From: Parcubacteria bacterium C7867-008
GTDB lineage: Bacteria; Patescibacteriota; Minisyncoccia; Phycocordibacterales; Phycocordibacteraceae
DNA: 64,000 nt
Direction: 5' to 3'
NCBI GenBank assembly: GCA_001189215.1
Contig: LFCR01000004.1
Span: 313,635 to 377,634, forward strand
In this document: piece after piece, positions 29,989 to 53,600 of the stretch
Numbering within the stretch: position 1 is the stretch's first letter
Layout of the letters: the number at the start of each line of letters is the position of its first letter
Notes under the pieces: generated by a model
Told to the model about the DNA's origin: nothing
Databases searched by the model: none
What the model saw: only the letters and a program-made list of their open reading frames with translations
Made by a program: the position numbers and the translations under genes

Positions 29989-30373
29989 CGACGCGGTCGA
30001 GGACTATGGAGATTGCCTTTAGGTCCCCGTCCATGGCCTTGCGCGTGAGCTTGTCGGCGATAACGTCGCCTACCGACACCTTTTGCCCGTCTCGCGTGAC
30101 GCCTCCTGCGCTGTCGACCTTGTATCTGATCTTTCCTGCCATGTGTCGGGCACCGAGCGGCTTGCCTGGATTACCTTCGGTGAAGCGGCCATTGACCGGG
30201 TCCCTGCCCGTATTTTCCCCGTATTTACGGTCAGGAGTTGGCGCTTCTAAAGGCCCGGAGTTGGCTTCTCCGGCTTCTACTGACGTTTGCTCCTGCGTGG
30301 CGGCCGGTACGGCCTTGGGAGCCGGGAGCAGGAGGAGCGTCTCTTGCGGTTTTTCATTATTCTTCAGGTTCAT
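29789..30373 (-). CDS. terminase small subunit-like protein
   Basis: Contains the NGRFTEGNPGKPLG motif common in phage small terminase/DUF5681-type proteins. Confidence 0.4.
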   Translation of the reverse strand: MNLKNNEKPQETLLLLPAPKAVPAATQEQTSVEAGEANSGPLEAPTPDRKYGENTGRDPVNGRFTEGNPGKPLGARHMAGKIRYKVDSAGGVTRDGQKVSVGDVIADKLTRKAMDGDLKAISIVLDRVDGKVPLAIEVNPVERQGVREYTPEEQAEFDSLFSRNDKPETESIAEAGNPGGNPGTPESTERSAYE

Positions 30374-32514: not shown

Positions 32515-33087
32515 TCATTGGCCCCCATGCCTGAACCGATTGAGGGACATTTTTTGAGTGAGTTCTCTTTTCAGGACTCCTAAGTTATCCACAGGGTCCC
32601 TAATACTTGGTTTCTCTTTCTTTCCTAGGTTTTGTGTGTTCACTACCTGAACCGATTTCGGTCTACTACCTGAACCGCTTTTGGTACGCCCAGCAGACTG
32701 GTTCACTACCTGAACTACTTTTTCCACATCCATATGCAGGTTTATTTGGTAGTAGTTCCCCTTCGTCGTTCCCCTGATCGAAATCGCTCCCGCCTCATTC
32801 AGACTCTTGAGACCTTTGGCGACCGAGGCACGCGCTAAGCCCGCACCGTAATCGAGCACGTTGCCACGGCGATCTTTTATTCCATCCATGAATTGCGAGA
32901 AGCTGATGCGGTCTGCGTCTTTATGAAATCCGAACGTGCGACGGCAAATGTAAAGAAGACATCGCGCTTCTGCTTCAGGGATAAGGGGAATAACCTTATC
33001 GAGGAGAATGTTTGGTAGCTGTGTGCTGTTTGGTATGAAAGATGTTGTTTTGTGTTCATCCATAGTTTTTTGGAAGAGAAGAAGCAT
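32515..33087 (-). CDS. putative phage replication initiator (winged-helix, lambda O/DnaD-like)
   Basis: The N-terminal region resembles replisome-organiser wHTH; the 3' end of the gene contains iteron repeats. Confidence 0.4.
   Translation of the reverse strand: MLLLFQKTMDEHKTTSFIPNSTQLPNILLDKVIPLIPEAEARCLLYICRRTFGFHKDADRISFSQFMDGIKDRRGNVLDYGAGLARASVAKGLKSLNEAGAISIRGTTKGNYYQINLHMDVEKVVQVVNQSAGRTKSGSGSRPKSVQVVNTQNLGKKEKPSIRDPVDNLGVLKRELTQKMSLNRFRHGGQ
32529..32724. repeat. iteron-like direct repeats (candidate phage ori) inside replication gene
   Basis: ACTACCTGAAC at 32641, 32664 and 32704 (each preceded by TTC/TCT), plus CCTGAACCGATT at 32529. Spacings are 23 and 40 bp. Confidence 0.6.
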
Positions 33088-33187: not shown

Positions 33188-34378
33188 CTACTTGCCACTC
33201 TTAGGAGCCTTGGCGGCTTTCCGTTCGGGCTTCCCGTCTTTCGTCTCTCGAAGGTCTTTCTCGAACTTCTGCTCAGGTGTTGGTTCTGGCACCTGTTCGC
33301 CTTTTGCTTCAGCGATCTTCTGCTGTGCGAATTCCTGGACCTTGGCGTAGCCGTCCTCGAGGATGTCAGGGCGCATCGTCTCGATCGCGGACCAGCTGCG
33401 AGTCCCGAAGGCGTAGTCGAGAGCGTCTACCTTGTTCTTCCTCTCGGCCGCGCTTGTGCTCGGCCAGATAGATACCAGGTAGCTTTCGATCTCCTCGAGC
33501 CAGCGCTTCCTTTCGAGGACCCACTTGCGCTTGTCCTCCTCGGTCCGGATCAGCTCGCCTGCGTCCCTTACTGCAGGGCTAAAACGGGCTGCTGCCGGGT
33601 CTTTGATGACCGCCTCGATTGCCGGTGCGAAGTCCTCGTAGGTCGGGTTCTTGAAGACCTTTCCGTCGAGGAGGTTGCCGCGGCCCTTGAGGACAGTTGC
33701 CTGTCGCCATACCTCTCGGTTCTTTCGAGTGATGAGCTCGTGGCGCTCCATGAGCACCAGGACATCGAACTCGTAGGCGGCATTCTTCTCGGCCTGCATC
33801 TTCACGCCTGTCTTCGTGAATTCTTTGCGGCCATCCTCATCTACCTCCTGCTCCATGCGATCCGACACGCGCCCGGTGGCGATGATGTGGAGCGGTGACT
33901 GGACCATCGGTATCGAGAAGTTCCGGTTCCAGTCGGACTTGATTGCCATCCAATCCTGGATTTGGAACGTCTGACGATTGAGCTTTCGCTTGTACGCCTC
34001 TTGGAAGTCCATCCAGATGTGAGTGATGCTGTCGATCACTACGATGTCCGAATATCCTTCCTGACAGAGCTTCATTGCCGTTACCAGGTCAGCGAGCGAG
34101 TGTGACTCGCGCACCATCGCTTCGATCCCGTGCTCCTTGAAGAGAGGGACCAGGAACTTTGATGCTTTCTCGGTGTCGATAAGGACAATGGGCTTTGTGC
34201 TGCCGATCTTCTTGTGAAGACCGATTGCTACTAATGCGGCACTCCAGCTCTTGCCGGTGCCAGGCTCTCCTTCAAAGGCTGCCTTGAAGTAGGGTTTGGT
34301 GTTCCCGATTGCGGTGAAGAAGTTTTCTTCAGTCGCTATTGGGACCACGCTTGGTCTTTCTAATGTTGCGGTAGTCAT
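33188..34378 (-). CDS. RecA-fold ATPase, AAA_24/Sak4-like (phage recombination/replication)
   Basis: Walker A GEPGTGKSW, Walker B IVVIDSITHIW. Confidence 0.55.
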   Translation of the reverse strand: MTTATLERPSVVPIATEENFFTAIGNTKPYFKAAFEGEPGTGKSWSAALVAIGLHKKIGSTKPIVLIDTEKASKFLVPLFKEHGIEAMVRESHSLADLVTAMKLCQEGYSDIVVIDSITHIWMDFQEAYKRKLNRQTFQIQDWMAIKSDWNRNFSIPMVQSPLHIIATGRVSDRMEQEVDEDGRKEFTKTGVKMQAEKNAAYEFDVLVLMERHELITRKNREVWRQATVLKGRGNLLDGKVFKNPTYEDFAPAIEAVIKDPAAARFSPAVRDAGELIRTEEDKRKWVLERKRWLEEIESYLVSIWPSTSAAERKNKVDALDYAFGTRSWSAIETMRPDILEDGYAKVQEFAQQKIAEAKGEQVPEPTPEQKFEKDLRETKDGKPERKAAKAPKSGK

Positions 34379-36643: not shown

Positions 36644-38605
36644 TTACTGGATACGGAACGAACCTCCGAAAATATTAAAAGAACCACGGAAAATATTGAA
36701 TTTTGAATCAGTAATAGGCGAACTATTTATTGCAGGACGTAGTGCGAAGGTTGTCACACCTGGAAGTACTGTGACTCCGTAGTTCCAAGTTACCGATGCT
36801 TGTGTTTGAGAGGTTGAAATAATTTTGTATATAGCGTTCTGAGGTTGGTTAGTTGAAATCTCGTTAAGTCCAACAAACGAATCTCCAGGCATTACAGTTG
36901 CTAGAGTTTGTGTGCCAGTGTCAATAGACGAGACACTGTATACGAGTGCTTTAGCTGTGAGTGTTGTGATAGCAGTGGTTGTTGCGGTAGCACCTCCTGC
37001 ACCCCCTGTATATGAGAAGGTACTGTTTGAAGGAGCAACATCATATTTACTTGTTCGATCAACATCACGGAACGTTGTGCAGATAACAGTCCAACGGTCA
37101 TTCGTGTTCGAGGTGAAATTATATGTGGAAGGTTCAGATCCTCCAGCATAGCGTGAGAATACGTAGACGTTTGCAGTTCCGTAGTTAGGACTCGTATAGT
37201 CTTTTGTGAATGGTGTTGCACCATTGTTATCTGAAAGTACCGCAGAACCACTATTAAAATTGATGGTGGCGATAACAACATCTCCTGATGCAGTACCCGC
37301 AGGTTTCGTACAAGATACCGCAGTACCGGAAGCCGCACTGCCGCTTGTGGTATCTATGACAGTTATGCCAGTAGGTGGTGCAATGAATGTAGCCATACTC
37401 ATCTTCACAAGCGACACCGCCGCCGGAGAGCCGGAGACAGAAGTAACCCAATTCACGAATTGATTGGCGCTGACCGCAATGGTGTTAGCTATATCACTTG
37501 CAGTGGTTGCAGCACTTGTGATAGTCGCACTAAGGGCCTGTGTTGCACCATTAATACGTAAAGCAAAGGTTCGAGTGGTCACACCACCGGGGGCCGCATC
37601 GATACTCGCGTAGATATTCTTCAAACTATAGTCAATACCTACCGTAGTAGAAGAAAGATTCTCAAGAGTGGTGTCCTGAGTAGCACCAACAATGGCATTG
37701 AAGCGGGTGCCGTTGGTGAGTACTGCACCCCGAACCCAAAGCGGAGCCTCGCCATCGGTAGTTGGCTTGTACGCGAAACCATAAAATACCTGACGGGCAG
37801 CGGGAGAGCCGACGGGTTCTGTGTGCACCGAGATTGTATCGCCCGCAGCAAATGATACCGTATGTACTACATCACTACACTGTAGTGTAGAAGCACCGCC
37901 TACATTACAGGTTACGGTCGTAGTAGCACCATTCTTATTTACATAAATATTGTATGACGTTCCAGCACCTGCAGCGAGCGCAAGCTGTCCATACAATTTT
38001 GTTAATGTGCCAGCAACAGGCATAATTGCGGACGAAGATGCTTCTACTGTGAAGGCTGAGCCTCCGTACGGCGGGAAGTAATTATATGCAGTGTTTGAGA
38101 CAATAGTTCCTCCTCCACCAAAACTTACCTCATCAGCAATACCGTGAGTATCAGATGCATTTATAACACCATTACTTGCTGCAGGAGTGCCCGCGGGTAC
38201 CTGCTGCCATGCGAGAAGATCTCCTGGAAGGTACGGGACGGTGTGCGTATTGTCCGCACAGCTACCTGAAGTATCGCTAATCGTGCAAGTAAGTGCGGTG
38301 GCAACGTTGTTACGGTAGAGAGTAATTACGTGAGATTTTCCTGCTCCAGGTGGAGTTACTAGTTGTACGGTGAGATTGCTCACCATGCCAGCACTTGATT
38401 GAGGTAGAGCACCTCCAGCAAAAGCGTTTGAGTTGACCCCAGATGTACCTCCTTCAAATCCAATGTATCGAGTACCGAACTGATTGAATGAAACATTGAT
38501 GGACGAGAAGACGGGTCGTTGCATCGCATACACCCCTAACGGCATTACCAGGAAGGCGACAAGAAAGGATCCTGCAACTCGTTTTGAGAATAAGTCTTGA
38601 AACAT
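36644..38605 (-). CDS. secreted Thr/Ser/Gly-rich surface protein
   Basis: 653 aa with an N-terminal signal/anchor (VAFLVMPLGVYAM) and beta-rich low-complexity composition, immediately downstream of the giant gene. Confidence 0.5.
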   Translation of the reverse strand: MFQDLFSKRVAGSFLVAFLVMPLGVYAMQRPVFSSINVSFNQFGTRYIGFEGGTSGVNSNAFAGGALPQSSAGMVSNLTVQLVTPPGAGKSHVITLYRNNVATALTCTISDTSGSCADNTHTVPYLPGDLLAWQQVPAGTPAASNGVINASDTHGIADEVSFGGGGTIVSNTAYNYFPPYGGSAFTVEASSSAIMPVAGTLTKLYGQLALAAGAGTSYNIYVNKNGATTTVTCNVGGASTLQCSDVVHTVSFAAGDTISVHTEPVGSPAARQVFYGFAYKPTTDGEAPLWVRGAVLTNGTRFNAIVGATQDTTLENLSSTTVGIDYSLKNIYASIDAAPGGVTTRTFALRINGATQALSATITSAATTASDIANTIAVSANQFVNWVTSVSGSPAAVSLVKMSMATFIAPPTGITVIDTTSGSAASGTAVSCTKPAGTASGDVVIATINFNSGSAVLSDNNGATPFTKDYTSPNYGTANVYVFSRYAGGSEPSTYNFTSNTNDRWTVICTTFRDVDRTSKYDVAPSNSTFSYTGGAGGATATTTAITTLTAKALVYSVSSIDTGTQTLATVMPGDSFVGLNEISTNQPQNAIYKIISTSQTQASVTWNYGVTVLPGVTTFALRPAINSSPITDSKFNIFRGSFNIFGGSFRIQ

Positions 38606-38623
38606 GGAACAATTATAGCATCG

Positions 38624-41600
38624 CTATGACGCAGACAGCACAACCGGAGCTGGAGCTGGTTCCGGTGCTGGAGTAGGAGCTGGTTCCGGTGCTGGAGTAG
38701 GAGCTGGTTCCGGTGCTGGAGTAGGAGTAGGTTCACTTGCTGGTAGCTGTGGTGCGCCCACATGTACCATTCGTGAGACCCCCGCACTCTGCCCTACCCC
38801 ATCCACTACTGAGTAGTTAATGGTATAGAGGCCGCTGGTATTTACATCCACCGTTCCTGTTACCGCAATTTGCGACGTAAGATCATTTCCTTGTGCATCA
38901 GTAGCAGTTGCTCCTGGGTCAGCCCAGTATGCACCCTGTGCAATATCAACGGCTGCGTCACCATTCAATGTAATGGTGGGTGCTCCAGGAACAGACGGTT
39001 CAGGTTCTGTTGGTGTTGGCTCCCCTGCGCTTGGAGTTGGTGGTGTGAACGGTGCAGCAACACTTGCAACCTGTGTTTGTTCCTCTGTCTGAACAATGAA
39101 GTAGTCGAAGGTTACATCTTCAGTCTGTGCTGAAGCAAGCGTGATTGTGAAACTTCCCTCCTGCTTCTCACGGATATACCAGCTACCATTGAGCGGTGAA
39201 GTAATAGTGACGAAGATCTTTGAGCTTGTGTGCATGAGTGGATTCGTCACTATTGTCTCTGTAGTTCCCACTGCAATGGTGCTAGTTGCAACTGATGAAG
39301 TTCCATCAGCAGCTGGAGCAGCAATAAGATTTGTGAACGCGAGCGAGCCAAAGCGTGCAATACCGTTCTGTATCAAGATACCCGCCTGAGCAAGCAGATC
39401 CTTAAGACCAGTAAGTGTAAGTGTTCCTCCAGTACCAGGGGTGCTTGATGCAATTGCCTCCAACATTGCAACACGGAGCTCAACTGCATCAATACGACCT
39501 GCAAGAAGTGCGGTTTGTGCGGTGAGTGATTGTACTCCCGTGATTGCATACGTTGCAGCCTTGTAGAGATCAACTCCTCCTTCTACAAGGATTTCACTCG
39601 GAAGAACACCGGTCGTTGATGCAATGGTGAATGTGATTGGTGTTGCAGGTGCAATAAATCCTGTCGCAAGAGCATTACCTGTAAGCGTAAGGCTTTGCGC
39701 GTTTATGTCGCTTGCTACTAGTGACTTAGGTTCAGACGGTTGTTCAGCATCCGGATGTTCAAGCTTACTGACCCGTGACCCAAGCGTCGTAGTAGACATA
39801 CTGAGAACTTCGAGTCTTCCAGCAAGATCCTTTATTGCGTTCACGCTCGCTGCAAGTATCGGACGATCGGAGAGACTCAAGTATCCCTGCGGACCAAGAT
39901 CTACAGCTTCTGGGATTACACTCTGGACGTTCTGTGCACTGAAACCAGCGTACAGCGTTGAACGGTCAAGACTACTTGTCGCATTCCAGTGGTAGAGAAT
40001 TGGATTAAGACCCTGTATTTCGGCAAGACCACGAGTGAACAAACCGTTTATATCCTTAAGACGTTCATCAGACGATACGGATAGGTTTCCGAGTGAATCT
40101 GTCTGCAATGTTCCTGCGCCGAAGGTTGCAAATCGTACTGACCCACTGGTACTGAGTTGAGCAGTAGGAGTAGTGGTACCGACGCCTATATTGCCTCCGT
40201 TACCGACCATGAAGTAGGTGCTTCCTGTTGACGTACCTACCGCAAAGATTGAAGAAGCACTATCTACCGTACTTACATTGAAGGTTGTTGAACCAACTGA
40301 GTTCTCAATGGCGAACGCATCTGAAACATCAGTTGTTGTCTTAAAACGAACACCTGCTGCACCAGAAACACTTAGTAGCCAGTTTGGTGTAGTAGTACCA
40401 ATACCTAGACGGCCGTTGGTGTTGTCCCATTTAAGAATACTTGCTCCCGAGTTTGCTGCCTGAGTGAGTTTGCTACCATCACTGAATACAATCCCGCCGT
40501 TATAGAAGGTTGTCGTAGCGGTACCACCACTTGCAAGTGTGTTGGTAAAGGAGGATCCAGTTGAAAGGCACACTCCGTTCATTGCGAAACAACCGGAAGT
40601 TAGGTTGATTCCTCCACTGCTATAAAAGGTTGATGTTGCAGTCGTAAAGTTGGCGATACCAGCGATAGAGAGAAGTGAACCAGGTGTTGTTGTACCAATA
40701 CCAACACTACCTCCATTACTGACCAAGAAACTTGTTGCAGATGATGAACCGACAACAAATGCTGGGGCTGTACCAATTGCATTTGGATTAACAGAGAAGG
40801 ATCCCCATGGCGTAGTACTTGAAATACCGACATTTCCGGTATTACCGAGAACCGAGATACGTGTAGTGCTATTCGCGCCAATACTTACTCCGCTTGATGT
40901 ACCTCCAGCCGAAATAACAATCTCACGATCATTGGTTTCGGTAATAAGACCGAATTGTGAACTGTTTGTGTACAACCTACCTGCGGTATTGCCTCCCGTA
41001 AGTCGAAGCTCGTTACCGGTATTTCCAGTCGGGTCATGTATCACGAGTGTTGCGCGACCCGCCGTACCAGGAGCAGGTGTAGCGGTGCCTATACCAACAT
41101 AGCCACTATTGGTAACAATGAACTTTACTCCAGTACTAGACCCAATTACAAAAGAAGGCGCTGTACCGTCTGCTGCGCTTGGATTTACTGATAGGCGTCC
41201 CCATGGTGATGAACTACCTACACCAGTAAATCCTTCGATAATGGCACCATTTGTTGGGGCGGTAATTCCTGCATAGGTTGCACCCAGGCCGAGGTTTCCT
41301 AATACGTTGAGACTTGAATTGGTCGCATTGGTATTAATACTGAACCCAGCGCTATTTACTTGTGCAGTACCAGTTGTACCCACGGTGCCATTAGCGCGGA
41401 AAACGATACGTCCAGAAGTTGGAGTCTGGAAGTAAAGATTACTATCACCTCCTCCAAAGAAACCAACCATGGTTGAGTCACCAAGACTGCCGTTTAGACT
41501 AATCGCTCCGTATGAAGGTGCACCCGCATCCACACCAAAGACGATTGGGTTTGATGCTCCAACTGTGTATTGAGTCATCTGACCATTCGCGTCAACCTTT

Positions 41601-44600
41601 AGATATGAACGTGTTGAAGAACCAATAACAAATGCGGGAGCACTACCCAGTGCTGCAGTTGGATTAATTGAGAGTAGTGCGGTTGGAGTTGACGTGCCAA
41701 GTCCAAGACGAGTGTTTGATTCACTCCAGAAAAAGTTTGCAGCAGCTGATGATTGGGTCAGCTTAGTACCATCAGAGAAGACCACGCCACCGTTGTAGAA
41801 CGATGTTGTAGCTGTACCTCCTGCCGCAAGTGTATTTGAGAATGAGCCTGCACCAACACAGGTGCCATTGATTGCGAAACAACCAGCAGTTAGGTTGATA
41901 CCTCCGGTTGAAGAGAAGCCGATGGCAAATGAAGGTACAGACCCGTATGTTGCGAGGGGATTGATTGAGAGCTGCGCCCACGGCGTGGAAGATGCAATAC
42001 CTACGTTACCTCGAAGATCACCATTTGCAGTAACTCCAAGGAGTACGTTACCGTCACGACCACCAATACCTCCCGATCCAACGGCACCACCTGCAAGGAA
42101 TACGTCCCCACCGTTACCGGCAGAACCTCCATTGTATGGACCTCCATCACCAGCAGTGAATAGCAGAGCACCTCCATCACCTCCACCAAATATGCCATCA
42201 TCCCCACCTCCTTTACCTGCATTGAGGATGATTCGCCCTCCGGTTCCTGCGATGTCAAAAAGTTCTACAAACTGCGAAGCATCATCAGCATACACCACGA
42301 GTCCATCTAAACCATTACCAGTGCTTGCTTCGCGTCCAGCAATAGAAAGGATACCCATCGGGGAACTTGTACCTACGCCTATCTTTCCGATAGGAGTGAG
42401 ACTCAAACCGCTACTAAAATCTCTAATGAAATTAAATTGACCGTTATCAAGACTAAATTGAGCAACACCATTGTTAAACTGTTTAAGATTTGCTGTGGCA
42501 AGAGCACCCGCAAACGTACTGGTGGCAGCAGTATTTGTTGCAGAGAAGAATGAGCCTACGACCTCACCTGCCACAGAAAGCCTTGCGTATGGAGATGATG
42601 TACCAATACCAAGATTCTTAGTGCTCTCACTCCAGAAGAAGTTTGCAGCGGATGCGGATTGCGTAAGCTTCGAACCATCACTGAACACTACCCCACCATT
42701 GTAGAAGGTGGTGGTTCCAGTACCGCCTGCCGCAAGTGTATTTGAGAATGAGCCTGCACCAACACAGGTGCCATTGATTGCGAAACAACCAGCAGTTAGG
42801 TTGATACCTCCGGTTGAAGAGAAGACAGGGTTAATTGATAGACGTCCCCACGGGGTTGAGGTACCGAGACCGAGGAACTTATTTGATTCACTCCAGAAGA
42901 AGTTGGCTGGGTCAGAAGATTGGGTAAGTTTTGTACCATCGCTGAATACGACACCACCGTTGTAGAACGTAGTGGTTGCAGTACCCCCATTTGCTAGAGT
43001 ATTGGAGAATGAACTACCTCCCACGCAAGTACCATTAATTGCAAAGCAGCCTGACGTTAGGTTGATACCTCCGGTTGAAGAGAAGGTTGAGGTTGCGGTA
43101 CTGAAGTTAGCAATACCTTGTATTGAGAGGAGTGAACCGGGTGTTGAGGTACCTATACCTACGAGTCCTGCGTTTGTGACTACAAAGTTAGTTGCCGTTG
43201 AAGATCCGATTACAAACGCAGGAGAAGTGCCGTTGCTTGCAATTGGGTTAATTGATAGACGCCCCCAAGGAGTGGTTGTTGCAACACCAACAGAACCTCC
43301 AAAATAGTTCTTGTTTGTTACAGAAGATGCATATACGCCGTATGTTGCACCTGTCACGTTTATACCTGCTCCGATAACAGAGTCACTAAGTATTGCATTG
43401 TTAGTTCCATCTGTAGCACTAAGTCCAACACCACTGCTCACATCAGCAATATCAATAGTATAAGGAGAGCTGGTGATGCGAACGGCACGATTCACTTGTG
43501 CAGGATCAGCATTAACAAGGAGTGCGGTCGTGTTTGGTAGGAAGGAAAGGGTACCTGATGTGTTTGAAAGACTAGCACCTTGAGCAACAACAAAGCCTGA
43601 AACGTATGCACTACCCCCAACTGAAAGTGTTGAGCCAGGGGTTGAGGTTCCGATACCAACGCGTCCTGCGCTAGTAACTAGGAAACTTGTTGCGGTTGAC
43701 GAACCAATACTAAATGCTGGAGCCGTGCCATTTGCAGCTGTTGGATTAATTGAAAGCTGAGCCCATGGTGTTGTTGAACCGACACCGACAAAACCATTAC
43801 CTGCCACCATGAAATCAGTCTTCGTGGAAGATCCGACTACAAATGAAGGTCGTGTACCGTTACCACTCTGGTTTATAGAGACCATTCCCCATGGTGATGT
43901 TGTTCCAAAGCCTGCCTGAATGGTGTTAAGTGCTGCCGTGCCTGATCCAGCTAAGGTAAGGGTCGGTATACCGGTGCCTGCGTTGTTGTCGATACCAATG
44001 TTTATTTTTGTGTTGAAGTTAGAGCGGATAGCTAGATCATTTTGTGCAGCACCCACAAACCATGAGTTCGCCGCACCAGAAAGAGCGAGTGCTGTCGTGT
44101 TAATGCCGGAACGAGCCAGCTTGATCGCAGGACTAAAGTTTGTGCCAGTCTGGGTTATAAGCAGACCGTCTCCTTCAATCGCGGTACTTATATTGAGCTT
44201 TGCTGCTGGAAACGCTGTTCCTATACCGACATTCGTAGTTGATGCAACGACGAAGCTTGTGCCAGTTGAAGATCCAATGGCAAACGCTGGTGCAGTAGCA
44301 TTCGTTGCCGTTGGGTTAATAGAAAGCTGTGCCCATGGCGTCGAGGTACCTAGACCAACATTTCCGTTATAGAGCGCTGTGAAGATCGGTGCCGTGCTTG
44401 TGGCGTTATTAATAGAAAGAATAGAAACATTCTGTGATTTCGTTGTTGAGGCGCTGAACGATGAGAAACCGTTTACGTTCAGACCGCTTCCGGCATTGAG
44501 ACTTCCCCATGCGTAAATGTCTCCATTCGCTGTAATGTTCTCGGTTACATTAAGGACGTTCGTAGCAATGTTCCCGGCGTAAAGCGAAGGCACTTCGGTG

Positions 44601-47600
44601 CCATTGATGTCGACAATCTGAAGGCCTGAGGAAGCATCCGCAACATACGCATACTTTCCAGAAACATAGACATCGGCAGTAGAACCTGAGGTATCAAAAG
44701 TCCCAATAAGCACCGGGGATGCGGCGTTCGAAATGTCGACGACTTGAACTCCATCCGCGCCATCTGCGACATACGCGTACTTTCCGGAAACGTAGACACC
44801 GCCCGCAGCTCCCGTGGTGTTATAGGTGCCAGCGAGTGAAGGCGCAACAGGGTTCGAGATGTCGACAATCTGAAGGCCTGAGGAAGCATCCGCAACATAC
44901 GCATACTTTCCAGAAACATAGACGGCTGCTGCAAATCCCGTGGTGTTATAGGTGCCAGCGAGTGAAGGCGCAACAGGGTTCGAGATGTCGATTATTTGGA
45001 GACCAGCAGTATCATCAGCGACATACGCATACTTTCCAGAAACGTATACATCCGTGGCGAAGCCTGTGGTATTAAACGTTCCAGCAAGCGTAGGTGACGC
45101 CGGATTCGATATGTCGATGACCAAGAGACCAGCTGAGTTATAACCAACATACGCGTACTTTCCGGAAACGTAGACACCGCTGGGAATGTCTACGCCAATG
45201 TAGGATCCCACAAGTGTAGGTGACGTTGGGTTCGAGATATCGATGACCTTGAGTGCCCCAGTATCATCAGTAATATAGGCGTACTTTCCTGAAACATAGA
45301 CATCGGCAATAAATGCCCCGCTGCTATACGTGCCAGCAAGCGTAGGTGACGCCGGATTCGATATATCGATGATTTGGAGTCCTCCAGAATCATCGGCGAC
45401 ATACGCATACTTTCCTGAGACTTGCACACCAAAGGACTGGCCTGGCGTGTCGTATGTTCCCATCAGCGTCGGATTCCCAAAAGCAGTCTGGATGAAGTTC
45501 CCTCCTGCGAGCGCGAGCTTAGCGAATGGACTTGATGTACCAATACCAACAAGTCCCGCATTTGTAACAACAAAGTTTGTTGCTGATGAAGAACCTATTG
45601 CAAACGATGGCGCCAAACCATTTGCTGCTGTTGGGTTAATAGAAAGCTGTGCCCAAGGTGTGGTTGAGGCAAGAGCAACGGTTGAGGTGAAGTTGTTTGC
45701 AGCACCCCAGGTATTTGCGGTGGTAGTACCGAATGCGAGAGAAAGAATGTTTGAAGAGAGTTGGATTGGATAGGTTGCAGTGAGAGGTGCTTGGTAATCG
45801 GTGCCGGATACTGCAACTGAGAGAAGACCGTTAGTTGATTTAACAAGACCACTGCCAAGACCATCGATTGTCGCCGTTCCATGAACAAGGAAGTTGCCTT
45901 CAACAGACAGTGCTGCAGACGGTGAGGTTGTTGCAATACCAAGGAAACCTGATGAGTTGAATCGTGCACGTTCAATACCCGACGTAGTGAAGCCGATTGT
46001 ATTTGCACCAGCGTGGAAGATACCCGTACCGAGGTCTGACGCCCACGTAAACGATGGTGCTGATGCGCCATCTGCGTTAAGACCAATGAATTGTGATCCT
46101 GTAGTGATGGAACCAGTCGTGTTGATAGTGGTTGCCGTAAGTCCCCCGTTGAAATCTTGGAGTTGGCTCCATTGGTTGGCAGTCGTAGTACCAAATGCGA
46201 GTGATACGTTGGTTCCAGAAAGTTGAAGTGGGTATGAGAAAGAGAGTGTATTGCCACCGACACAAGTTCCGTTTACCGCAAAACATCCATTGGTTAGGTT
46301 GATGCCTCCCGTTGAAGAGAATGTTGACGTTGCGTTAGTGAAGTTAACAATACCTTCTATGGAGAGGAGTGAGCCTGGAGTGGTGGTACCTATGCCAACA
46401 TTTCCATTGTTAAGGATATTAAACAGTGTTGTTGTTGCAGTTAACGTTGAAGATCCTATTGCAAAAAGGGTCTTATCTGTTGAGCCAGTATTTGCGTGTA
46501 TTGAGAGTTTTGCATAGGGCGAGCTACTGGCAATACCAATCTGTCCAGTAGTTGCATCTAAGAATGAAGTTGCACTTGTTGTTGCAGGAAGCGTACCGAA
46601 AAGCAGGTTGCCAATATTGAGTTGATTATTTGCTGTTGCACTTGCAAAACGCGTATTGAAACCAATCCCAATATTGTTTCCTCCCGTAGTAATGTAGCCA
46701 GTGCCACTAGTACCTGACTGAGTTCCCAGGAATGTGTTGTCGCCACCGGTAGTAATTGCACCACCAGCTCGAACACCCACCGCAGTATTGTTAGATCCTG
46801 ACAACAAATTCGTCATGGCAAATACACCAAATGCAGAGTTAGCTGCTCCCGTGGTATTTGAACTTAGTGCCGTTGCCCCGAACGCACTGTTATTTGACGC
46901 GGTTGTGTTTGAACCGAGAGCGCTGGTACCAATTGCCTGGTTGCGTATTCCTGTTGTGTTTGAACCGAGAGCGCTGCCCCCAATCGCAATGTTGTTATTT
47001 CCCGTCGTGTTGGTTGAAAGTGCCAGGGTACCAATCCCAATATTAAATGCACCTGAGTTTGCACCAAGCGTGCTTGAACCAAAACCTGCATTGTTTCCTA
47101 TATACACGCCATCACTTGCTGTTGCGCCATATCCAGCACCGGTACCCAGGAAGACGTTGCGTGCACCTGTGGTCTTTGTTGGTGATCCGTTTGCACCAAG
47201 CCCACCAAAGAAGTTACTGGTACCTAGTACCGAGATAGTTGTTGAACCCTGATAACTCAACAGGTTTGTGTTGCTGTCTACATTGAAGCCGCCTGTTGCT
47301 GTGGTGGTGCCTACAACGGATAGCGTCTGGTACGGGGTAGTAGTTCCAAGACCGAGTCGTGCATTTGATTCACTCCAGAAGAAGTTAGCAGCAGCTGATG
47401 ACTGGGTCAGCTTGGTGCCATCAGAGAACACTACACCGCCATTGTAGAACGTAGTGGTTCCCGTGCCACCACTTCCAAGACCGAGCGTTCCTCCAAGAGA
47501 ACTTAATGAAAGACAGGTTCCATTTATTGCGTAGCAGCCAGCTGCGAGATTTAGTCCACCAGTTGAGTAGAATGTTGAAGTTGCAGTGGTGAAGTTAGCA

Positions 47601-50600
47601 ATACCACCTACAGACAGAAGTGAGCCAGGTGAGGTTGTTCCGACACCAAAGAATCCAGATGAGTTGAAACGGCCTCGTTCAATACCACTGGTACTAAATC
47701 CAATGGTGTTGGCAGACCCATGGAAGATACCTGTACCCAAGTCACTTCCCCATGTAAATGATGGTGCGGACGCACTATCACCACTTAGACCAATGAACTG
47801 TGAACCGGTAGTGATGGAACCAGTCGTGTTGATAGTTGTTGCCGTAAGGCCTCCATTAAAGTCTTGGAGTTGGCTCCATTGATTAGCAGTGGTGGTACCA
47901 AACGCAAGTGATACGTTAGTTCCAGAAAGTTGAAGTGGGTATGCGAATGAGAGTGTATTGCCACCAATACATGAACCGTTAATTGCGAAACATCCATTCG
48001 TGAGGTTAATACCGCCTGATGATTGGAACGTTGAGGTTGCAGTGGTGAAGTTTGCGATTCCTTGTATTGAGAGGAGTGAACCAGGAGTTGAGGTACCGAT
48101 ACCAACATTTCCGTTATTGAGGATATTAAACAGAGTTGTTGTGGCGGTAGGTGAACTAGAGCCAATAGTGAAGAGATTGGTATTTGTTTCTCCACTGTTT
48201 GCATGGATGGAGAGTTTTGAGAATGGTGAAGAAGTACCAATGCCAACGTTACCGTTATAGAGCGCAGTAAATATTGGCGCAGAACTTGTCGCGTTGCTTA
48301 CTGAAAGTACTGAGATGTTCTGTGCACGAGATGTAGATGCATTAAATGTAGAGAAACCATTTACATTGAGACCATTTCCAGCCATGATAGTCCCCCATGC
48401 TGAAATATTTCCTCCAGAGAAAATGTTGTCGGTTGCGTTAAGTACGTTTGTTGCAATGTTTCCTGCCGTAAGTGCCGGTACATCAACGCCGTTGATATCA
48501 ATGATCTGAAGCCCCGCAGAAAGATCACCAACATACGCATACTTGCCGACGACAGTTACACCATATGCGGTACCTGATGTGTCATACGTACCCACAAGTA
48601 ATGGTTGTGCAGGATTGGTAACATCAAGTACCTGGAGACCCGAACTACCATCTCCAACATACGCATACCTTCCAGCAACAAAGATGCTGTGTGCAGTACC
48701 AGCAGTATCAAAGCTACCAACAGACGTTACTGATGCTGGGTTTGAGATATTAACGATTTGAACGCTTGCGAAAGGAGAACCTCCGTCTGAAATGTATGCG
48801 TACTTCCCAACCACCGTCACATCTTCAGCAATCCATGGGGTGTCATAGGTACTAACTAGTCTTGGATTTGCAGGGCTTGAAATATCAATGACGCGCAAAC
48901 CGCTGAAATCGTCTGCAACGTATGCATACTTACCAGCAATAGAGATGCCGCTTGGTGCTGAGAGGCCAGAAAGGAATCCGACACCGACTGGAGCAGTTGG
49001 GTTTGAAATATCAATCACGACGACATTTGCCCCTGTGCCATCAGTAACATACGCATACCTACCCACTATCGCAACACCATTGTAATCAAAAGCGCTAATA
49101 CTGTAGTTTCCTACCAGTGCTGGAGCCGTTGGATTTGAGATATCGATAACCTGAAGACCGCTTCCCGAGTCTGCGATGTACGCGTATTTACCTGAGATAG
49201 CAATTGCACCAGCGACACCAGGAGTGTCGTACGTACCTACAAGAACAGGTAGTGCAGGGTTTGAAACATCGATAATCTGAAGGCCGCTACCCGCATCTGC
49301 GACGTAAGCGTAACTACCTATAACTTGTGCAACTACAGCAGAACCTGCTGTGTTGTATGTTCCAAGTAGGGTTGGATTTCCAACAGCAGTCTGCACAAAG
49401 TTTCCTCCTGCAAGCGCAAACTTCGCAAATGGCGATGTTGTACCGATACCAACACGTCCTGCATTTGAAACAATAAAGCTTGTTGCTGACGAAGAACCAA
49501 CAACAAACGCTGGTGCGGTGCCGAGGGTTGCTATTGGATTAACAGAGAGTTGTGCCCATGGTGTTGACGTACCGACACCGAAATTACCCGTGCTACTCAC
49601 TCTCGCCTTTTCAGAACCACTTACATAAAATACGTGACTACCTGAGACTGGCACTATGTAATCAAGCTGACTTCCGCTAACGCCCAAACCAAATACCGTA
49701 GAGCCATCGTCATACAATTTGAGCTTTGGATTGTTACCCGCTGAGCTAGAGAAGGTACCACCCAAAGATACTACGACCGGACTGGCAGTTGACTGACTTG
49801 TCTGAGAGCCTATTTGTAGATTCGATTGTGGGTTTGTTGTACCAATTCCAACATTTCCTGCATTTGAAACAATGAAGCTTGTTGCTGACGAAGATCCAAC
49901 AACAAACGCTGGTGCGGTACCGAGCGTTGCTATTGGATTAACCGAGAGTTGTGCCCATGGTGTTGTAGAAGCAACACCCACACGTCCAGCGTTGAGTATC
50001 GAAACTAACGTGGTTGGACTCGCAGCAATGCCACTCTGAAAATTGAAATTTCCAGTAGCAGCACGGAAATTCACGTTTCCATTTGATCCATCATTATAGA
50101 ACCCAAAACCATTTGCGCCGGCGTCTGCTGTACGGTTCGAAGAGTTATAGTAGAAACCTGCAGTACTGGATGTATCGTTTTTAAAGACTACGATTGAGTG
50201 CGCTGTTGCACCTGCGCTTGAATTTTGGAAACTAAGTGGTGCAAATTGACCGCTGACTGATGTTGCAACTGTGAAGGTGTCAGTAGTATATATTTTTCCA
50301 TCGACGGAAAAGCGCTGTGCGGGTGTTGTGGTTCCTATACCCACATATCCTGAGTTTGATACTAGGAAGCTTGTTGCAGAGGACGAGCCGATTACGAATG
50401 CTGGTGATGTACCGAGAGTAGCTGTTGGGTTAATTGAGAGCTGTGCCCACGGTGTTGAAGTTCCGAGACCAAGGAATTTGTTTGATTCACTCCAGAAGAA
50501 GTTTGCTGCTGCAGAAGACTGTGTGAGTTTTGTACCGTCACTGAATACAACACCTCCGTTATAGAAGGTGGTTGTTCCTGTACCACCACTTCCAAGTCCA

Positions 50601-53600
50601 AGAGTTCCTACAAGAGAACTGAGTGTGAGACATGTTCCATTAATTGCATAACACCCGCCTGTAAGATTGAGTCCGCCAGTACTGTAGAAAGTCGATGTTG
50701 CTGCAGTGAAGTTAGCAACACCTTCAATTGAGAGGAGTGATCCTGGTGAAGTCGTTGCGATACCAAGGAAACCACTTGAGTTAAACCGTGCGCGTTCAAT
50801 ACCGCTTGTGCTGAATCCAATTGCATTTGCACCAGCGTGGAATATTCCTGTAGTGAGATCAGACGCCCAAGTGAATGAAGGTGCTGATGCGCCATCAGCG
50901 TTAAGACCTATGAACTGTGAGCCAGTTGTGATGGAGCCTGAAGTGAGGATGGTTGTTGCCGTAAGTCCCCCGTTGAAATCTTGGAGTTGGCTCCATTGGT
51001 TGGCAGTCGTTGTACCAAATGCGAGTGATACGTTAGTTCCAGAAAGTTGAAGTGGGTATGCGAATGAGAGTGTATTACCACCAATACATGAACCGTTAAT
51101 TGCGAAACAACCGGAACTTAGGTTGATTCCTCCACTGCTATAGAAGGTTGATGTTGCAGTGCCAAAGTTAGCAATACCTTGGATGGAGAGGAGTGAACCA
51201 GGTGTTGAAGTACCTATACCAACCCTACCTCCATTACTGACCAAGAAGGTTGTTGCAGATGATGAACCGACAACAAATGCTGGGGCGGATCCGTCACTTG
51301 CGATTGGATTTACTGATAGGTTTGCCCATGGCGTGGTAGATCCAACACCAAGCTTACCGATATAGTAGCTCGTATCGTACCCTATACGCGCATAGTCCTT
51401 ATAGGTTCCATCGTTGCGGAATCCTGAGAATAGGAAGAAAGCATTTGATGAATTGACAGTCTCACGGACACTTCGAATATCGGTAAGGACGCGTCCAGAA
51501 CCTATACTTCCAGCGGGATTGATCTGAAGCGTGATATTCGCAAACTGGTTGGCATTGTTGCCCGTATTTGTATTCTCCATTACGAAGGTACGACCAGCAT
51601 CTCCCATATCGGTATTTGCTGCATATGTACTGGTGTCTGATTTCTGGAGTGTTAGGAGACCGCGCACATCAGTACCCCCGATAGCCCAGCCATTTGTTAC
51701 TGCACCTTGGCCCGCATAGAGTATGGTACCTCCTGCAACACCCTGAGGGCTGACGGTGAGTGCACCGTTTGCAGCAACAGTGAATGACGTGTAGTTACTT
51801 CCATCATACCCAACACGCAACTGTTCCGTAGTACTTACCGCATGAAGCTTAGCTGCAGGCGCAGCGGTTCCGATACCCACACGTCCTGCATTTGTAATCA
51901 CAAAGTTGGTTGCAGACGATGAACCAACAACAAATGATGGTGCTGTACCGTTTGCAGCTGTTGGGTTAACGGAGAGTTGCCCCCATGGAGTGGTTGAAGC
52001 AAGAGCAACCGTTGATGTGAAGTTGTTTGCAGCACCCCAGGTATTTACTGTTGTGGTACCAAAGGCGAGTGAGATTACATCCGATGAATTAATTAATGGG
52101 TAGGTAAACACGAGTGGTACTTGATAATCAGTACCTGCTGAAGCAACTGAAAGGACACCAGCAGTTGCTTTAAGCAGTCCGGTGAGTGATGTATTAACGG
52201 TGGTGAGATTAGGAGCAGAGACAAGTGTTCCAATCGTAGATGTTGCATTAATGCGTGCATCTGCACGGGCATCTGTGAAGTATCGATTTGTAAGACCTTC
52301 AGCAAGTGCATCCGTAGTAGTTGCACTGAAGTATGAGTAGAAGCGCTCACCAAAGTTTGTCAGATTTACTGCATTCAAGTAATAACTTCCCTCCTGTCCA
52401 TCAAACGTACCGGTCCAGTCACCGGTGCGATCGAGAGTAAGAACACCTGCGGTGTTTACAAGACCACTACCGGTGAGTGAGGTGAAGTATGAGCTGTTGA
52501 GACCGAAGGTGGTGGTGTTGAGTGAGGTGGTGGTTGCGTTGCCAGCAGTGAGTGCACCGGTGACTGCAAGGGCACCGCCGATCGTAGCGTTCCCTGAAGT
52601 TCGTAGCGTGCCTGCAACGGTGTTAAGTATCCCGACACCAATACCGCCAGTGAAGTATCCTGAGCCACTTACTGACAATTGGGTAGGCGCTGTAGTTGTT
52701 GCGATACCGAGACGTGAAGAGATGTACTGCTGCCCAATTACCTCAAAGATGCTGTTTGAGGTACTTGTTGCACTACCACCAATTACTACAACATTTGATG
52801 TGTCTTGCGGGTAAATAAGTCCTGATGATGTAGCAAATACACCATCACCACCACCCCCACCTGAAATGGTCTGATCAAGGCCCCATGCAGGAAGACCTGC
52901 CTGAACCTTGAGTACCTGGCCGGCAGAGCCAATTGGTAGGGTTGTTAGGTTGCCGCTACCATCCGCAAAGAGAATATCTCCAGAATTATAGGTAGAAATG
53001 CCCGTTCCTCCGTTCACCTGTGCAAGAACACCCGTGTGATTAGCGAGATCTAGGTAATAACTTCCCTCCTGTCCATCAAACGTACCGGTCCAGTCACCGG
53101 TGCGATCAAGCGTCAGAACACCTGCAGTGTTTACAAGACCACTACCGGTGAGTGAGGTGAAGTATGAGCTGTTGAGACCGAAGGTGGTGGTGTTGAGTGA
53201 TGTGGTGGTTGCGTTGCCAGCGATAAGTGAAGAAAGGAAACTTGGGCCAGAAACAGTAAGTGCGGTTGTAGAAGCACCCCCGTTGAACTGCTGAAGTGCA
53301 TTCCATTGATTTGCGGTGGTGGTACCGAACGCAAGTGAGACTGAGTTAATCGCACGGACGAGAGGATATGCGAACGAAAGCGGATTCTCGTAATCAACTC
53401 CAGCAACTGCAGGTGAAAGGACACCTGCAGTTGCTTTAAGAATTCCGGTAAGTGATGTGGCCACCGTACCAAGATTTGGCGCTGAGGTAAGAGTACCGAT
53501 TGTTGATGTTGCATTGATGCGCGCATCCGCACGAGCATTTGTGAAGTATAGATTTGTAATGCCTTCTGCAAGTGCATCAGTAGTCTTTGTGGTGAACCAG

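What the first reader, a model, noticed from the sequence alone, without database searches (positions are those of the whole stretch)
39750..40072. Internal Peptidase_S74-like intramolecular chaperone domain about 375 aa before the C-terminus of the giant protein
The segment SDERLKDINGLFTRGLAEIQGLNPILYHWN...SDRPILAASVNAIKDLAGRLEVL matches the tail-spike/endosialidase C-terminal chaperone domain as I recall it. In phages this domain self-cleaves at the conserved Ser after trimer folding and is released. Here it is internal, so autoproteolysis would shed a ~375-aa C-terminal fragment (Ig-like domain plus PT linker), or the domain has been repurposed as a trimerisation unit.
Basis: partly seen in the sequence, partly recalled or inferred. 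Interest (0 to 1): 0.6.

Follow-up and report, generated by a model that had tools for sequence, protein, structure and literature searches.

The report
Self-cleaving chaperone domain in giant fibre
A 5,746-residue surface-fibre protein of a Parcubacteria-like (candidate phyla radiation) bacterium carries a genuine phage-type self-cleaving "S74" folding domain 482 residues before its end, and relatives show that a conserved tail module always sits behind such a cutter, so the tail is probably cut off from the finished fibre.

Summary
Residues 5265-5369 of the 5,746-aa ORF (window 38624-55864, minus strand) are a Peptidase_S74 / intramolecular-chaperone domain. It scores 36 bits against a Pfam cut-off of 22, and a clade profile hits solved S74 domains including MyRF ICA. 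The AF2 model has pLDDT above 90 in this part and matches S74 folds.

The catalytic dyad is intact: SDERLK gives Ser5265 and Lys5270, the same +5 spacing as endoNF, T5 pb1 and MyRF.

The interpretation needs three corrections.
- Cleavage in this family is N-terminal of the Ser, so the piece released would be 482 aa (49 kDa) and would include the S74 domain, not about 375 aa.
- The gene is chromosomal in a patescibacterium, not phage.
- An internal position is the rule in this clade: the median Ser-to-stop distance is 242 aa, against 126 aa in other phyla.

Two further results came out of the comparison.
- The tail begins with a degenerate second S74 unit that has lost its dyad. A helical segment, a β-sandwich and an Ig-like domain follow. 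These are better conserved than the fibre body.
- At least 314 protein clusters share this tail. In every classifiable one it lies behind at least one intact autoprotease: S74, tandem S74, or a Peptidase_G2-like domain.

Self-cleavage itself remains untested.

The parts
38624..55864 (-). Giant ORF of 5,746 aa. Layout: N-terminal HTH_17, one TM segment, a tail-fibre-like repeat body with two LVIVD propeller blocks, the S74 domain, then the conserved C-terminal module.
55691..55840 (-). HTH_17 / excisionase-type helix-turn-helix, aa 9-58
   Evidence: Pfam 30.8 bits. TIGR01764 28 bits, just under its cut-off. The same N-terminus is present in giant relatives.
55475..55540 (-). The only strongly hydrophobic segment, aa 109-130. 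Putative signal-anchor or TM helix.
   Evidence: Kyte-Doolittle scan, one window above 1.8 in the whole protein
40073..40195 (-). Conserved pre-cleavage stalk, aa 5224-5264 (GNIGVGTTTPTAQL...GAGTLQTDSLGNLSVS). It contains a VGxGTxxPxxxL loop motif.
   Evidence: Conservation across 79 loci: D(-9) in 75/79, G(-6) in 77/79, N(-5) in 70/79. Consensus.
39758..40072 (-). Peptidase_S74 / intramolecular chaperone auto-processing domain, unit 1, aa 5265-5369. It includes the long C-terminal helix aa 5333-5369.
40070..40072 (-). Codon of Ser5265, the predicted nucleophile. The predicted scissile bond is S5264|S5265.
   Evidence: Pfam profile position 1. Aligned with the Ser of S16 gp37 and 8jov, and with the S-to-A site of MyRF 7dc3. 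Literature.
40055..40057 (-). Codon of Lys5270, the predicted general base (Ser +5)
39452..39667 (-). Degenerate, internally deleted second S74 unit, aa 5400-5471. The dyad positions are lost (Ser to Ala; the Lys position falls at the edge of the deletion), about 40 residues are missing, and only GVDLYK plus the long helix are retained.
   Evidence: An HMM of intact unit 2 from relatives matches only model positions 62-107 (2e-12). Alignment A4. Unit 2 of relatives is PF13884. Model helix 209-248.
39314..39406 (-). Conserved helical segment, aa 5487-5517 (LKDLLAQAGILIQNGIARFGSLAFTNLIAAP)
39089..39304 (-). Small β-sandwich domain, aa 5521-5592, pLDDT above 90
   Evidence: 79% identity to L001. 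Conserved in the 314 clusters.
38981..39088 (-). Pro/Thr-rich linker, aa 5593-5628
   Evidence: sequence; pLDDT below 50
38759..38974 (-). Bact_surface_Ig-like domain (PF16403), aa 5631-5702
   Evidence: 74.7 bits against a cut-off of 27. Foldseek hits to BT2262 and Big_3 domains.
38627..38752 (-). Pro/Thr/Ala/Glu-rich C-terminal tail, aa 5705-5746. No TM segment and no LPXTG motif.
   Evidence: sequence. No hydrophobic segment in any extension.

Best explanation
Residues 5265-5369 are a working S74 intramolecular chaperone/autoprotease at the distal end of a giant, probably trimeric, cell-surface fibre of a Parcubacteria-like bacterium.

Proposed sequence of events:
1. The chain is anchored by its N-terminal TM segment and exported.
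2. The C-terminal region emerges last. It consists of S74 unit 1, the coiled-coil helix left from a decayed S74 unit 2, and the helical, β-sandwich and Ig-like module.
3. Three of these regions associate and set the register for folding of the tail-fibre-like stalk.
4. Once the trimer is formed, Ser5265, activated by Lys5270, cuts the S5264|S5265 bond.
5. This severs a 482-aa, 49-kDa acidic fragment (S74 plus the conserved tail module) from the 5,264-aa mature fibre.

Shown computationally:
- domain identity, dyad and fold;
- clade-wide conservation of the domain;
- a tail module under strong purifying selection;
- in relatives, at least one intact autoprotease domain always in front of that module.

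Inferred:
- trimerisation;
- actual cleavage;
- dissociation of the fragment;
- the role of the tail module. I favour a conserved assembly or tethering role, or a separate role after release, because it is more conserved than the fibre body. A variable host-binding tip seems less likely.
For: Domain identity: PF13884 at 36 bits against a cut-off of 22, starting at S5265.

Solved relatives: profile hits to 8jov, MyRF ICA and S16 gp37, with Ser and Lys aligned.

Fold: AF2 pLDDT above 90 in the domain, with Foldseek hits to MyRF ICA and to many viral ICA/S74/Gp37 proteins.

Dyad spacing: S/K at +5, identical to endoNF S911/K916, MyRF S587/K592 (PMC8326128) and T5 S1264/K1269. In T5 the cut is Thr1263-Ser1264 (PMC4690869).

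Conservation: the SDxxxK motif is present in 79/79 informative genome loci that were retrieved through a different motif, YxGFSAQNV.

Precedent: bacterial surface fibres ending in S74 do self-cleave. Bdellovibrio Bd3182 cleaves at S782 and the S782A mutant does not (PMC10769870).

The tail module is functional: against the syntenic orthologue L001 its folded parts are 79-87% identical (dN 0.08-0.14), while the upstream stalk is 62% identical (dN 0.33).

Family pattern among relatives that share the tail (314 clusters), for the 63 representatives that could be classified:
- 23 have tandem S74 units;
- 16 have S74 plus a truncated unit 2, like the window (one of them only a weak S74 match);
- 13 have a G2-like domain plus a truncated unit 2;
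- 11 have an intact unit 2, ten with no other such domain found and one behind a G2-like domain.
None lacks a domain with an intact catalytic motif.

Topology: no TM segment or sorting signal lies C-terminal of the cut in any of 78 extensions.
Against: - No experiment has been done, and no trimer model could be built with these tools.
- In endoNF and T5 an Arg 14 residues upstream of the Ser, from a neighbouring chain, stabilises the oxyanion. Here position -14 is Gly. Candidate Args are at -21 (R5244, 49/79 loci) and +3 (R5268, 75/79), and their roles are unresolved.
- Strong conservation of the tail, and adhesin-type domains in it (Ig-like here; H-lectin, HYR and InlK_D3 in relatives), would also fit a tip that stays on the fibre.
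- The Peptidase_G2 assignment in relatives is borderline. Three of 11 score above the Pfam cut-off, and a profile found no PDB hit.
- The classification of relatives rests on my own HMMs and regular expressions and covers only 63 of 145 representatives.
Confidence: 0.65

Rival explanations
1. The domain cleaves, but the 482-aa fragment stays bound non-covalently at the fibre tip, or it is never cleaved and S74 acts only as a trimerisation clamp. In either case the β-sandwich and Ig-like domains form the working distal adhesive tip.
For: - The tail is under strong purifying selection.
- Tails in relatives carry adhesion-type domains: PF16403 in 15/78, plus H_lectin, HYR and InlK_D3.
- The C-terminus is the distal end of an N-terminally anchored fibre.
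- The decayed unit 2 shows that S74 pieces can be kept purely as a coiled coil.
Against: - The dyad of unit 1 is invariant in 79/79 loci. Where the dyad has decayed (unit 2), another intact autoprotease is always present upstream. That is hard to explain if cutting does not matter.
- Every S74 domain with an intact SDxxxK motif covered in the papers read here cleaves, and the parts separate: T5, MyRF and Bd3182.
- A conserved tail on highly variable fibres does not look like a host-range-determining tip.
Confidence: 0.25
2. The gene is a tail fibre of the neighbouring prophage, and the S74 domain does its ordinary phage job.
For: - A phage-like block lies 4 kb downstream on the same strand. 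It includes a terminase, Rep_O, a methylase and an endolysin-domain ORF.
- PHROG tail-fibre families match the region.
Against: - GAPDH and a conserved secreted ORF separate the gene from the block.
- The giant gene, that ORF and GAPDH are syntenic with Parcubacteria bacterium C7867-007, which shows no homologue of any phage-block ORF in the 5.8 kb held beyond GAPDH.
- GAPDH flanks the S74-bearing gene in 12 loci and GatB or Obg in 6 each.
- The protein starts with an HTH and a membrane anchor and is 5,746 aa long. Relatives of 3,400-5,500 aa share both ends.
Confidence: 0.04
3. The match is a chance or low-complexity artefact, or a decayed relic with no function.
For: A single-sequence phmmer search against the PDB was weak (E 0.055).
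Against: - The Pfam score is above the gathering cut-off.
- Profile-to-PDB E-values reach 3e-13.
- The fold matches.
- The domain is 85% identical to its orthologue with dN 0.09, the lowest but one of all segments compared.
Confidence: 0.01

Closest known systems
Phage C-terminal intramolecular chaperone domains (Peptidase S74): K1F endosialidase endoNF, T5 pb1, S16/T4-like gp37, GA-1 neck appendage
   Same: - Same Pfam family and same fold.
- SDxxxK Ser-Lys dyad with +5 spacing.
- Preceded by a β-rich fibre stalk.
- Long C-terminal helix expected to form the trimeric coiled coil.
   Different: - The phage domains are the last 130-155 residues of the protein and are discarded alone. Here 377 further residues with folded, conserved domains follow.
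- The host protein is cellular, membrane-anchored and about five times longer.
- There is no Arg at position -14.
Bdellovibrio bacteriovorus MAT (mosaic adhesive trimer) fibres, S74 subgroup, e.g. Bd3182 (PMC10769870)
   Same: - A cellular (not viral) surface fibre of a bacterium that lives on other bacteria.
- A trimeric β-helix stalk with recurring V-G-x-x-x-x-P-x-x-x-L type loops.
- An S74 domain with an SDxxxK motif. Self-cleavage has been shown for Bd3182.
   Different: - MATs terminate in the S74 domain. They have a signal peptide and a conserved ~130-aa β-rich N-domain, and are about 900-1,100 aa long.
- The window protein has HTH plus TM at the N-terminus, is 5,746 aa long, and carries a conserved module after S74.
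- Membership of the MAT family was not tested and is unlikely.
MYRF / MrfA membrane-bound transcription factors (ICA domain)
   Same: - The S74/ICA domain is internal and further domains follow it.
- After the cut the ICA domain stays with the C-terminal fragment.
- The C-terminal helix drives trimerisation.
- MyRF ICA is the best PDB fold match for the S74 part of the model.
- Both proteins combine a DNA-binding-type domain, a TM segment and an S74 domain.
   Different: - The order differs. MYRF is DBD-ICA-TM, so cleavage frees the DBD. Here the order is HTH-TM-fibre-S74, so the cut is on the far side of the membrane and cannot free the HTH.
- There is no Ndt80 domain.
- MYRF is eukaryotic, this protein is patescibacterial.
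Peptidase_G2 IMC autoproteolytic domain (phi29 gp12 pre-neck appendage type)
   Same: In some relatives (for example P0150) a domain matching PF11962 occupies the place of S74 in front of the same tail module. This points to a shared role as a cutter or chaperone.
   Different: It is not present in the window protein. The Pfam matches are borderline and partial (profile positions 16-100 of 228), and a profile found no PDB sequence hit.

Membership tests
Peptidase S74 / ICA (PF13884) | Sequence match to the family profile above the curated threshold | tested here: met
   36.1 bits against a cut-off of 22, profile positions 1-57 of 58, E 8e-9. Repeated.
Peptidase S74 / ICA (PF13884) | Catalytic Ser with Lys five residues downstream (SDxxxK) | tested here: met
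   S5265-D-E-R-L-K5270. Aligned to the Ser and Lys of 8jov and S16 gp37, and to the mutated Ser site of MyRF. Reference residues from PMC8326128 and PMC4690869. Present in 79/79 loci.
Peptidase S74 / ICA (PF13884) | α/β fold ending in a long helix | tested here: met
   AF2 pLDDT 84-97 with helix aa 5333-5369. Foldseek match to MyRF ICA at E 1.4e-4 and TM(target) up to 0.65. 119 viral matches at E<=1e-3, the listed ones mostly annotated as ICA, S74, Gp37 or neck appendage.
Peptidase S74 / ICA (PF13884) | Homotrimer, with the active site completed in the trimer (Arg from the neighbouring stalk in endoNF and T5) | not testable with these tools
   Only single-chain prediction was available. There is no Arg at -14. 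Candidates are R5244 (-21, 49/79 loci) and R5268 (+3, 75/79).
Peptidase S74 / ICA (PF13884) | Autoproteolysis at the bond before the Ser | not testable with these tools
   Needs protein expression with S5265A and K5270A controls.
Phage-type C-terminal IMC (CIMCD) arrangement | The domain is the extreme C-terminus and is released alone | tested here: not met
   377 aa with three further folded elements follow the domain. In Patescibacteria 49/51 homologues have at least 160 aa from the Ser to the stop codon.
Bdellovibrio MAT fibre family | Signal peptide followed by a conserved ~130-aa β-rich N-terminal domain, with a trimeric fibre ending in S74 or another tip | not tested
   The N-terminus here is HTH_17 plus a TM segment, unlike the published description. 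No MAT sequence was compared.
MYRF family | Ndt80-type DNA-binding domain N-terminal of the ICA domain and a TM segment C-terminal of it | tested here: not met
   No Ndt80 hit. The only TM-like segment is at aa 109-130, far upstream of S74.

The most novel reading that the evidence does not exclude
Patescibacteria have a family of giant fibres that are HTH-TM-anchored. At least 314 clusters share the tail module. Their conserved C-terminal module (coiled coil derived from an S74 unit, then a helical segment, a β-sandwich and an Ig-like domain) is a dedicated 'leaving group'. It is always severed by an interchangeable autoprotease cassette: S74, tandem S74, or a G2-like domain. Under this reading the module is either a previously undescribed maturation and assembly device for half-megadalton surface fibres, or a way of shedding a trimeric Ig-domain particle towards the host.
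Probability: 0.3. Interest if true: 0.7.

Novelty: new variant of a known kind. Interest (0 to 1): 0.5.

Why it matters
Patescibacteria (CPR) are thought to live attached to other microbes. Their giant surface proteins are assumed to mediate this, but almost nothing is known about how such proteins are built.

This locus shows that a phage-style quality-control cutter is built into a 5,746-aa fibre, and it predicts the exact maturation bond. That gives a simple, testable handle: one point mutant and one gel.

The family-level pattern is a conserved tail that always lies behind one or two cutters, sometimes of different types. It suggests that severing the tail is the selected function. It also shows S74 units decaying into plain coiled coils, which bears on how these modules evolve and on the origin of internal S74 domains such as the one in MYRF.

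Tried and rejected
- A single-sequence phmmer search of the segment against the PDB gave only a weak hit (8jov, E 0.055). A clade profile resolved this.
- My first translation used the wrong strand or frame.
- Prophage tail-fibre idea: rejected on synteny and architecture.
- Search for the endoNF/T5-type Arg at position -14: not present.
- Peptidase_G2 in relatives: only 3 of 11 segments pass the Pfam cut-off, and profile A5 found no solved relative. I keep it as 'G2-like'.
- Literature searches for S74 or 'chaperone of endosialidase' in CPR/Patescibacteria found nothing that links the two. The Vampirococcus paper mentions giant surface proteins but not S74.
- NCBIfam has no model for the region.
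- dN/dS ratios are unreliable because synonymous sites are saturated (pS 0.59-0.74). Only dN and amino-acid identity are used.
- My first scan of relatives for S74 gave misleading 'no S74' calls, because divergent SxxxxK units and unit 2 were missed. I redid it.
Full report
**1. What is at the coordinates**

The window holds a 17.2-kb ORF on the minus strand (38624-55864, 5,746 aa). 392 residues follow it. The plus-strand ORF at 39624-39995 is an antisense by-product inside this gene.

**2. Is it an S74 domain?**

Yes.
- Pfam PF13884 (Peptidase_S74, 'chaperone of endosialidase') matches with E 8e-9 and 36.1 bits against a gathering cut-off of 22. The match covers profile positions 1-57 of 58 and begins exactly at Ser5265 (reproduced).
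- PHROG tail-fibre families also match the region.
- A single-sequence search of the PDB was weak.
- A profile of the domain from 26 relatives (A1) hits three solved S74 domains: tail fibre 8jov (3e-13), the MyRF ICA domain 7dc3 (8.5e-9) and the phage S16 gp37 tip with its chaperone, 6f45 (1e-8). In each alignment S5265 and K5270 lie on the Ser and Lys of the target. In 7dc3 the Ser position holds Ala, which I take to be an engineered substitution.
- An AlphaFold2 model of aa 5225-5746 has pLDDT 84-97 across aa 5265-5369 and ends in a 37-residue helix.
- Foldseek finds the MyRF ICA domain in the PDB (E 1.4e-4, TM up to 0.65 on the target).
- In BFVD there are 119 matches at E<=1e-3. The listed ones are mostly named ICA, Peptidase S74, Gp37 or neck appendage.

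**3. Catalytic residues and the cut site**

Three papers give the reference residues.
- EndoNF Ser911/Lys916 are equivalent to MyRF Ser587/Lys592 and form the catalytic dyad (PMC8326128; PMC3742443).
- In T5 pb1 the dyad is Ser1264/Lys1269. The bond cut is Thr1263-Ser1264, and the Ser leaves with the chaperone (PMC4690869).
- Bdellovibrio MAT fibres carry the same 'SDxxxK' motif (PMC10769870).

The window protein has S5265-D-E-R-L-K5270. The predicted cut is therefore S5264|S5265. The released piece would be S5265-S5746: 482 aa, 49.4 kDa, pI 4.3.

The Arg that completes the active site in endoNF and T5 lies 14 residues upstream of the Ser. It is absent here, where position -14 is Gly. R5244 (-21) and R5268 (+3) are candidates.

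**4. Whose gene is it?**

The flanking genes are housekeeping genes: GatB, Obg and an HI0933-like flavoprotein upstream, and GAPDH downstream. The 3' end of the giant gene, the next ORF (653 aa, secreted) and GAPDH are syntenic at 71-77% nucleotide identity with Parcubacteria bacterium C7867-007 (L001). GAPDH lies next to the S74-bearing gene in 12 related loci, and GatB and Obg in 6 each.

Close homologues are named Kaiserbacteria, Paceibacteria, Parcubacteria or Patescibacteria.

A phage-like block (terminase, Rep_O, methylase and others) starts about 4 kb downstream. None of its ORFs has a homologue in L001, which holds 5.8 kb beyond GAPDH. The gene is therefore chromosomal and not a prophage tail fibre.

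The protein begins with an HTH_17 domain (aa 9-58) and a single hydrophobic segment (aa 109-130). Other giant relatives of 2,900-5,500 aa begin the same way. The body consists of tail-fibre-like G-[IV]-G-T-x-x-P-x-x-x-L repeats (34 copies) and two seven-bladed LVIVD propeller blocks.

**5. Is the internal position unusual?**

Not in this clade. The 80 genome loci were retrieved through the motif YxGFSAQNV, which is independent of the dyad. The distance from the catalytic Ser to the stop codon has these medians:
- Patescibacteria: 242 aa, with 49 of 51 at 160 aa or more and a maximum of 592 aa.
- Other phyla (Flavobacteriia, Methylocystis, Saprospiria and others): 126 aa, which corresponds to a terminal domain.

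All 79 informative loci keep SDxxxK. None of the 78 extensions contains a TM-like segment, so a severed fragment would be soluble. Pfam finds PF16403 in 15 of the 78 extensions, and occasionally H_lectin, HYR or InlK_D3.

**6. What follows the domain**

The model and comparisons show these elements in order:
- a low-confidence linker;
- a second long helix, aa 5433-5472;
- a conserved helical segment, aa 5487-5517;
- a β-sandwich, aa 5521-5592, pLDDT above 90;
- a PT linker;
- the Ig-like domain, aa 5631-5702;
- a PT-rich tail.

Against the orthologue in L001 the folded tail elements are 79-87% identical (dN 0.08-0.14). That is as conserved as the S74 core (85%, dN 0.09) and clearly more conserved than the upstream stalk (62%, dN 0.33). 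Synonymous sites are saturated, so dN/dS ratios are not used. The tail is therefore functional and not junk.

**7. The tail in the wider protein universe**

Searching aa 5370-5600 against 1.84 billion cluster representatives gives 314 clusters at E<=1e-3 and 77 at E<=1e-30. The module always lies near the C-terminus, in proteins of up to 5,473 aa.

Two things emerged when I inspected what precedes the module.

(a) Many relatives carry a second S74 unit at the start of the 'tail', of the form ...GFVNTSTRxAKKDI...LGLIAEE...GVDLYKLATFTL...
- Pfam calls this unit PF13884. P0126 and P0157 each show two S74 stretches. In P0155 and P0128 the hit falls on this unit.
- In the window protein only the C-terminal part of this unit survives. 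An HMM of intact unit 2 matches only model positions 62-107, at aa 5429-5474, with E 2e-12.
- Alignment A4 shows an internal deletion of about 40 residues. It also shows Ala at the Ser position, and the Lys position falling at the edge of the deletion (ATGFIAPATPIT...).
- The second long helix of the tail is thus a decayed S74 unit that has been kept as a helix.

(b) The domain in front of the module varies.
- It can be canonical S74.
- It can be a divergent SxxxxK S74: P0113 (SSQRFK, PF13884 at 36 bits) or P0114 (STPLAK, a weak 18 bits).
- It can be a DYAEYF...GIVSTxP... domain that matches Pfam Peptidase_G2, the IMC autoproteolytic domain. Scores against a cut-off of 25 are 30.6, 26.2 and 25.6 bits, with 24.7, 24.6 and 20.6 just below.
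- That assignment is tentative. Only profile positions ~16-100 of 228 match, and a profile of these domains finds no solved relative.

Of 145 representatives, 63 could be classified with local HMMs:
- 23 have S74 plus an intact unit 2, that is, tandem S74 units;
- 15 have S74 plus a truncated unit 2, like the window, and P0114 adds one more with a weak S74 match;
- 13 have a G2-like domain plus a truncated unit 2;
- 10 have an intact unit 2 with no other such domain found within 420 aa;
- 1 has a G2-like domain plus an intact unit 2.

Wherever unit 2 has lost its dyad, another putative autoprotease stands in front of it. No classified member lacks one. This complementarity is the main argument that cutting is selected for, rather than trimerisation alone.

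**8. Mechanism**

I propose the following.
- The C-terminal region nucleates and registers the trimer. This region is S74 unit 1, the coiled-coil remnant of unit 2, and the rest of the tail.
- The stalk then folds, and S5265/K5270 cut S5264|S5265.
- The cut frees a 49-kDa fragment from the N-terminally anchored 5,264-aa fibre.

Every S74 domain with an intact SDxxxK covered in the papers read here cleaves. I put the probability of cleavage at about 0.7-0.75.

Whether the fragment leaves, and what it does, is inference. The tail is more conserved than the fibre bodies it is attached to. I therefore favour a conserved partner, such as assembly or tethering on the cell's own envelope, or a separate role after release. 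A host-specific tip seems less likely.

The main rival is that the tail stays on as the adhesive tip, either uncleaved or held non-covalently. I give it about 0.25.

**9. Comparison with known systems and novelty**

- The domain is a member of Peptidase S74. Profile, dyad and fold were all tested and met. Trimer formation and cleavage could not be tested.
- It does not have the phage CIMCD arrangement. Terminal position was tested and not met.
- It works most like the S74 subgroup of Bdellovibrio MAT fibres. Those are cellular predator fibres with demonstrated self-cleavage, but they end in S74 and have a different N-terminus.
- It resembles MYRF in having an internal ICA domain. The domain order differs, however, so the HTH cannot be released by the cut.
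- I found no paper linking S74 to Patescibacteria. Databases merely label such proteins 'tail fiber domain-containing'.

I rate the finding as a new variant of a known kind. The domain and its chemistry are ordinary. The conserved post-cutter module, the decayed second unit and the interchangeable cutters are, as far as I could find, undescribed.

Interest is 0.5.

Noticed in passing
window 7919-34378 (minus strand): A phage-like gene block. It holds a terminase large subunit (28204-29988, phrog_38), a portal-sized ORF (26135-28150), a DNA methylase (30357-31685), Rep_O (32515-33087), AAA_24 (33188-34378), a transglycosylase/endolysin-domain ORF (15631-17220) and a phrog_22485 ORF (7919-10432). 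None of these ORFs has a homologue in the 5.8 kb held beyond GAPDH in the syntenic Parcubacteria locus L001. This is a likely prophage in a CPR genome. There is no tRNA gene anywhere in the window.
   Followed up: partly
window 55475-55840 and 56620-57621: The giant protein and the 333-aa ORF just upstream both start with an excisionase-type HTH_17 domain and have a single TM segment. Giant relatives (P0113, P0114, P0110, P0128, P0150, P0155) share this N-terminus. A cytoplasmic DNA-binding-type domain tied through one TM segment to a giant ectodomain is a ToxR-like topology of unknown meaning.
   Followed up: partly
relatives P0126, P0157 and 21 other representatives: Two complete S74 units in tandem (SDERLK..., then about 100 aa later STRxAK...), in front of the same tail module. 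This implies two potential self-cleavage sites in one chain.
   Followed up: partly
relatives P0150, P0151, P0201 and others: A DYAEYF...GIVSTxP...ENGPIxxGD domain replaces S74 in front of the same tail module. It matches Pfam Peptidase_G2 (IMC autoproteolytic domain) at or near the cut-off. A second subtype (AENYP...ALSGRVPV) scored 20.6 bits at best among the three copies scanned.
   Followed up: partly
window 36644-38605 (minus strand): A 653-aa ORF with an N-terminal signal-like segment lies 18 nt downstream of the giant gene. It has no Pfam family and only a weak phrog_3329 match. It is conserved (60% identity) only in L001 among the 80 loci. It may be co-transcribed with the giant gene.
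   Followed up: partly
giant protein aa ~2190-2460 and ~3480-3750 (window ~47500-49300 and ~44600-45430): Two seven-repeat LVIVD β-propeller blocks are embedded in the fibre. The body also contains large internal duplications: for example YPLQLSGTNVSLAFGTTTANQWSQLQDFNGGLTATTI occurs at aa 1603, 2642 and 3211, and FYNGGVVFSDGTKLTQ-type motifs occur six times.
   Followed up: no
loci L012, L018, L033 (Methylocystis), L034/L038/L043 (Flavobacteriaceae), L049 (Saprospirales), L071 (Omnitrophota): Very similar S74 domains (52-68% identity to the window's) occur in unrelated phyla, there mostly as the terminal domain. This suggests horizontal spread of the cassette, possibly through phages.
   Followed up: no
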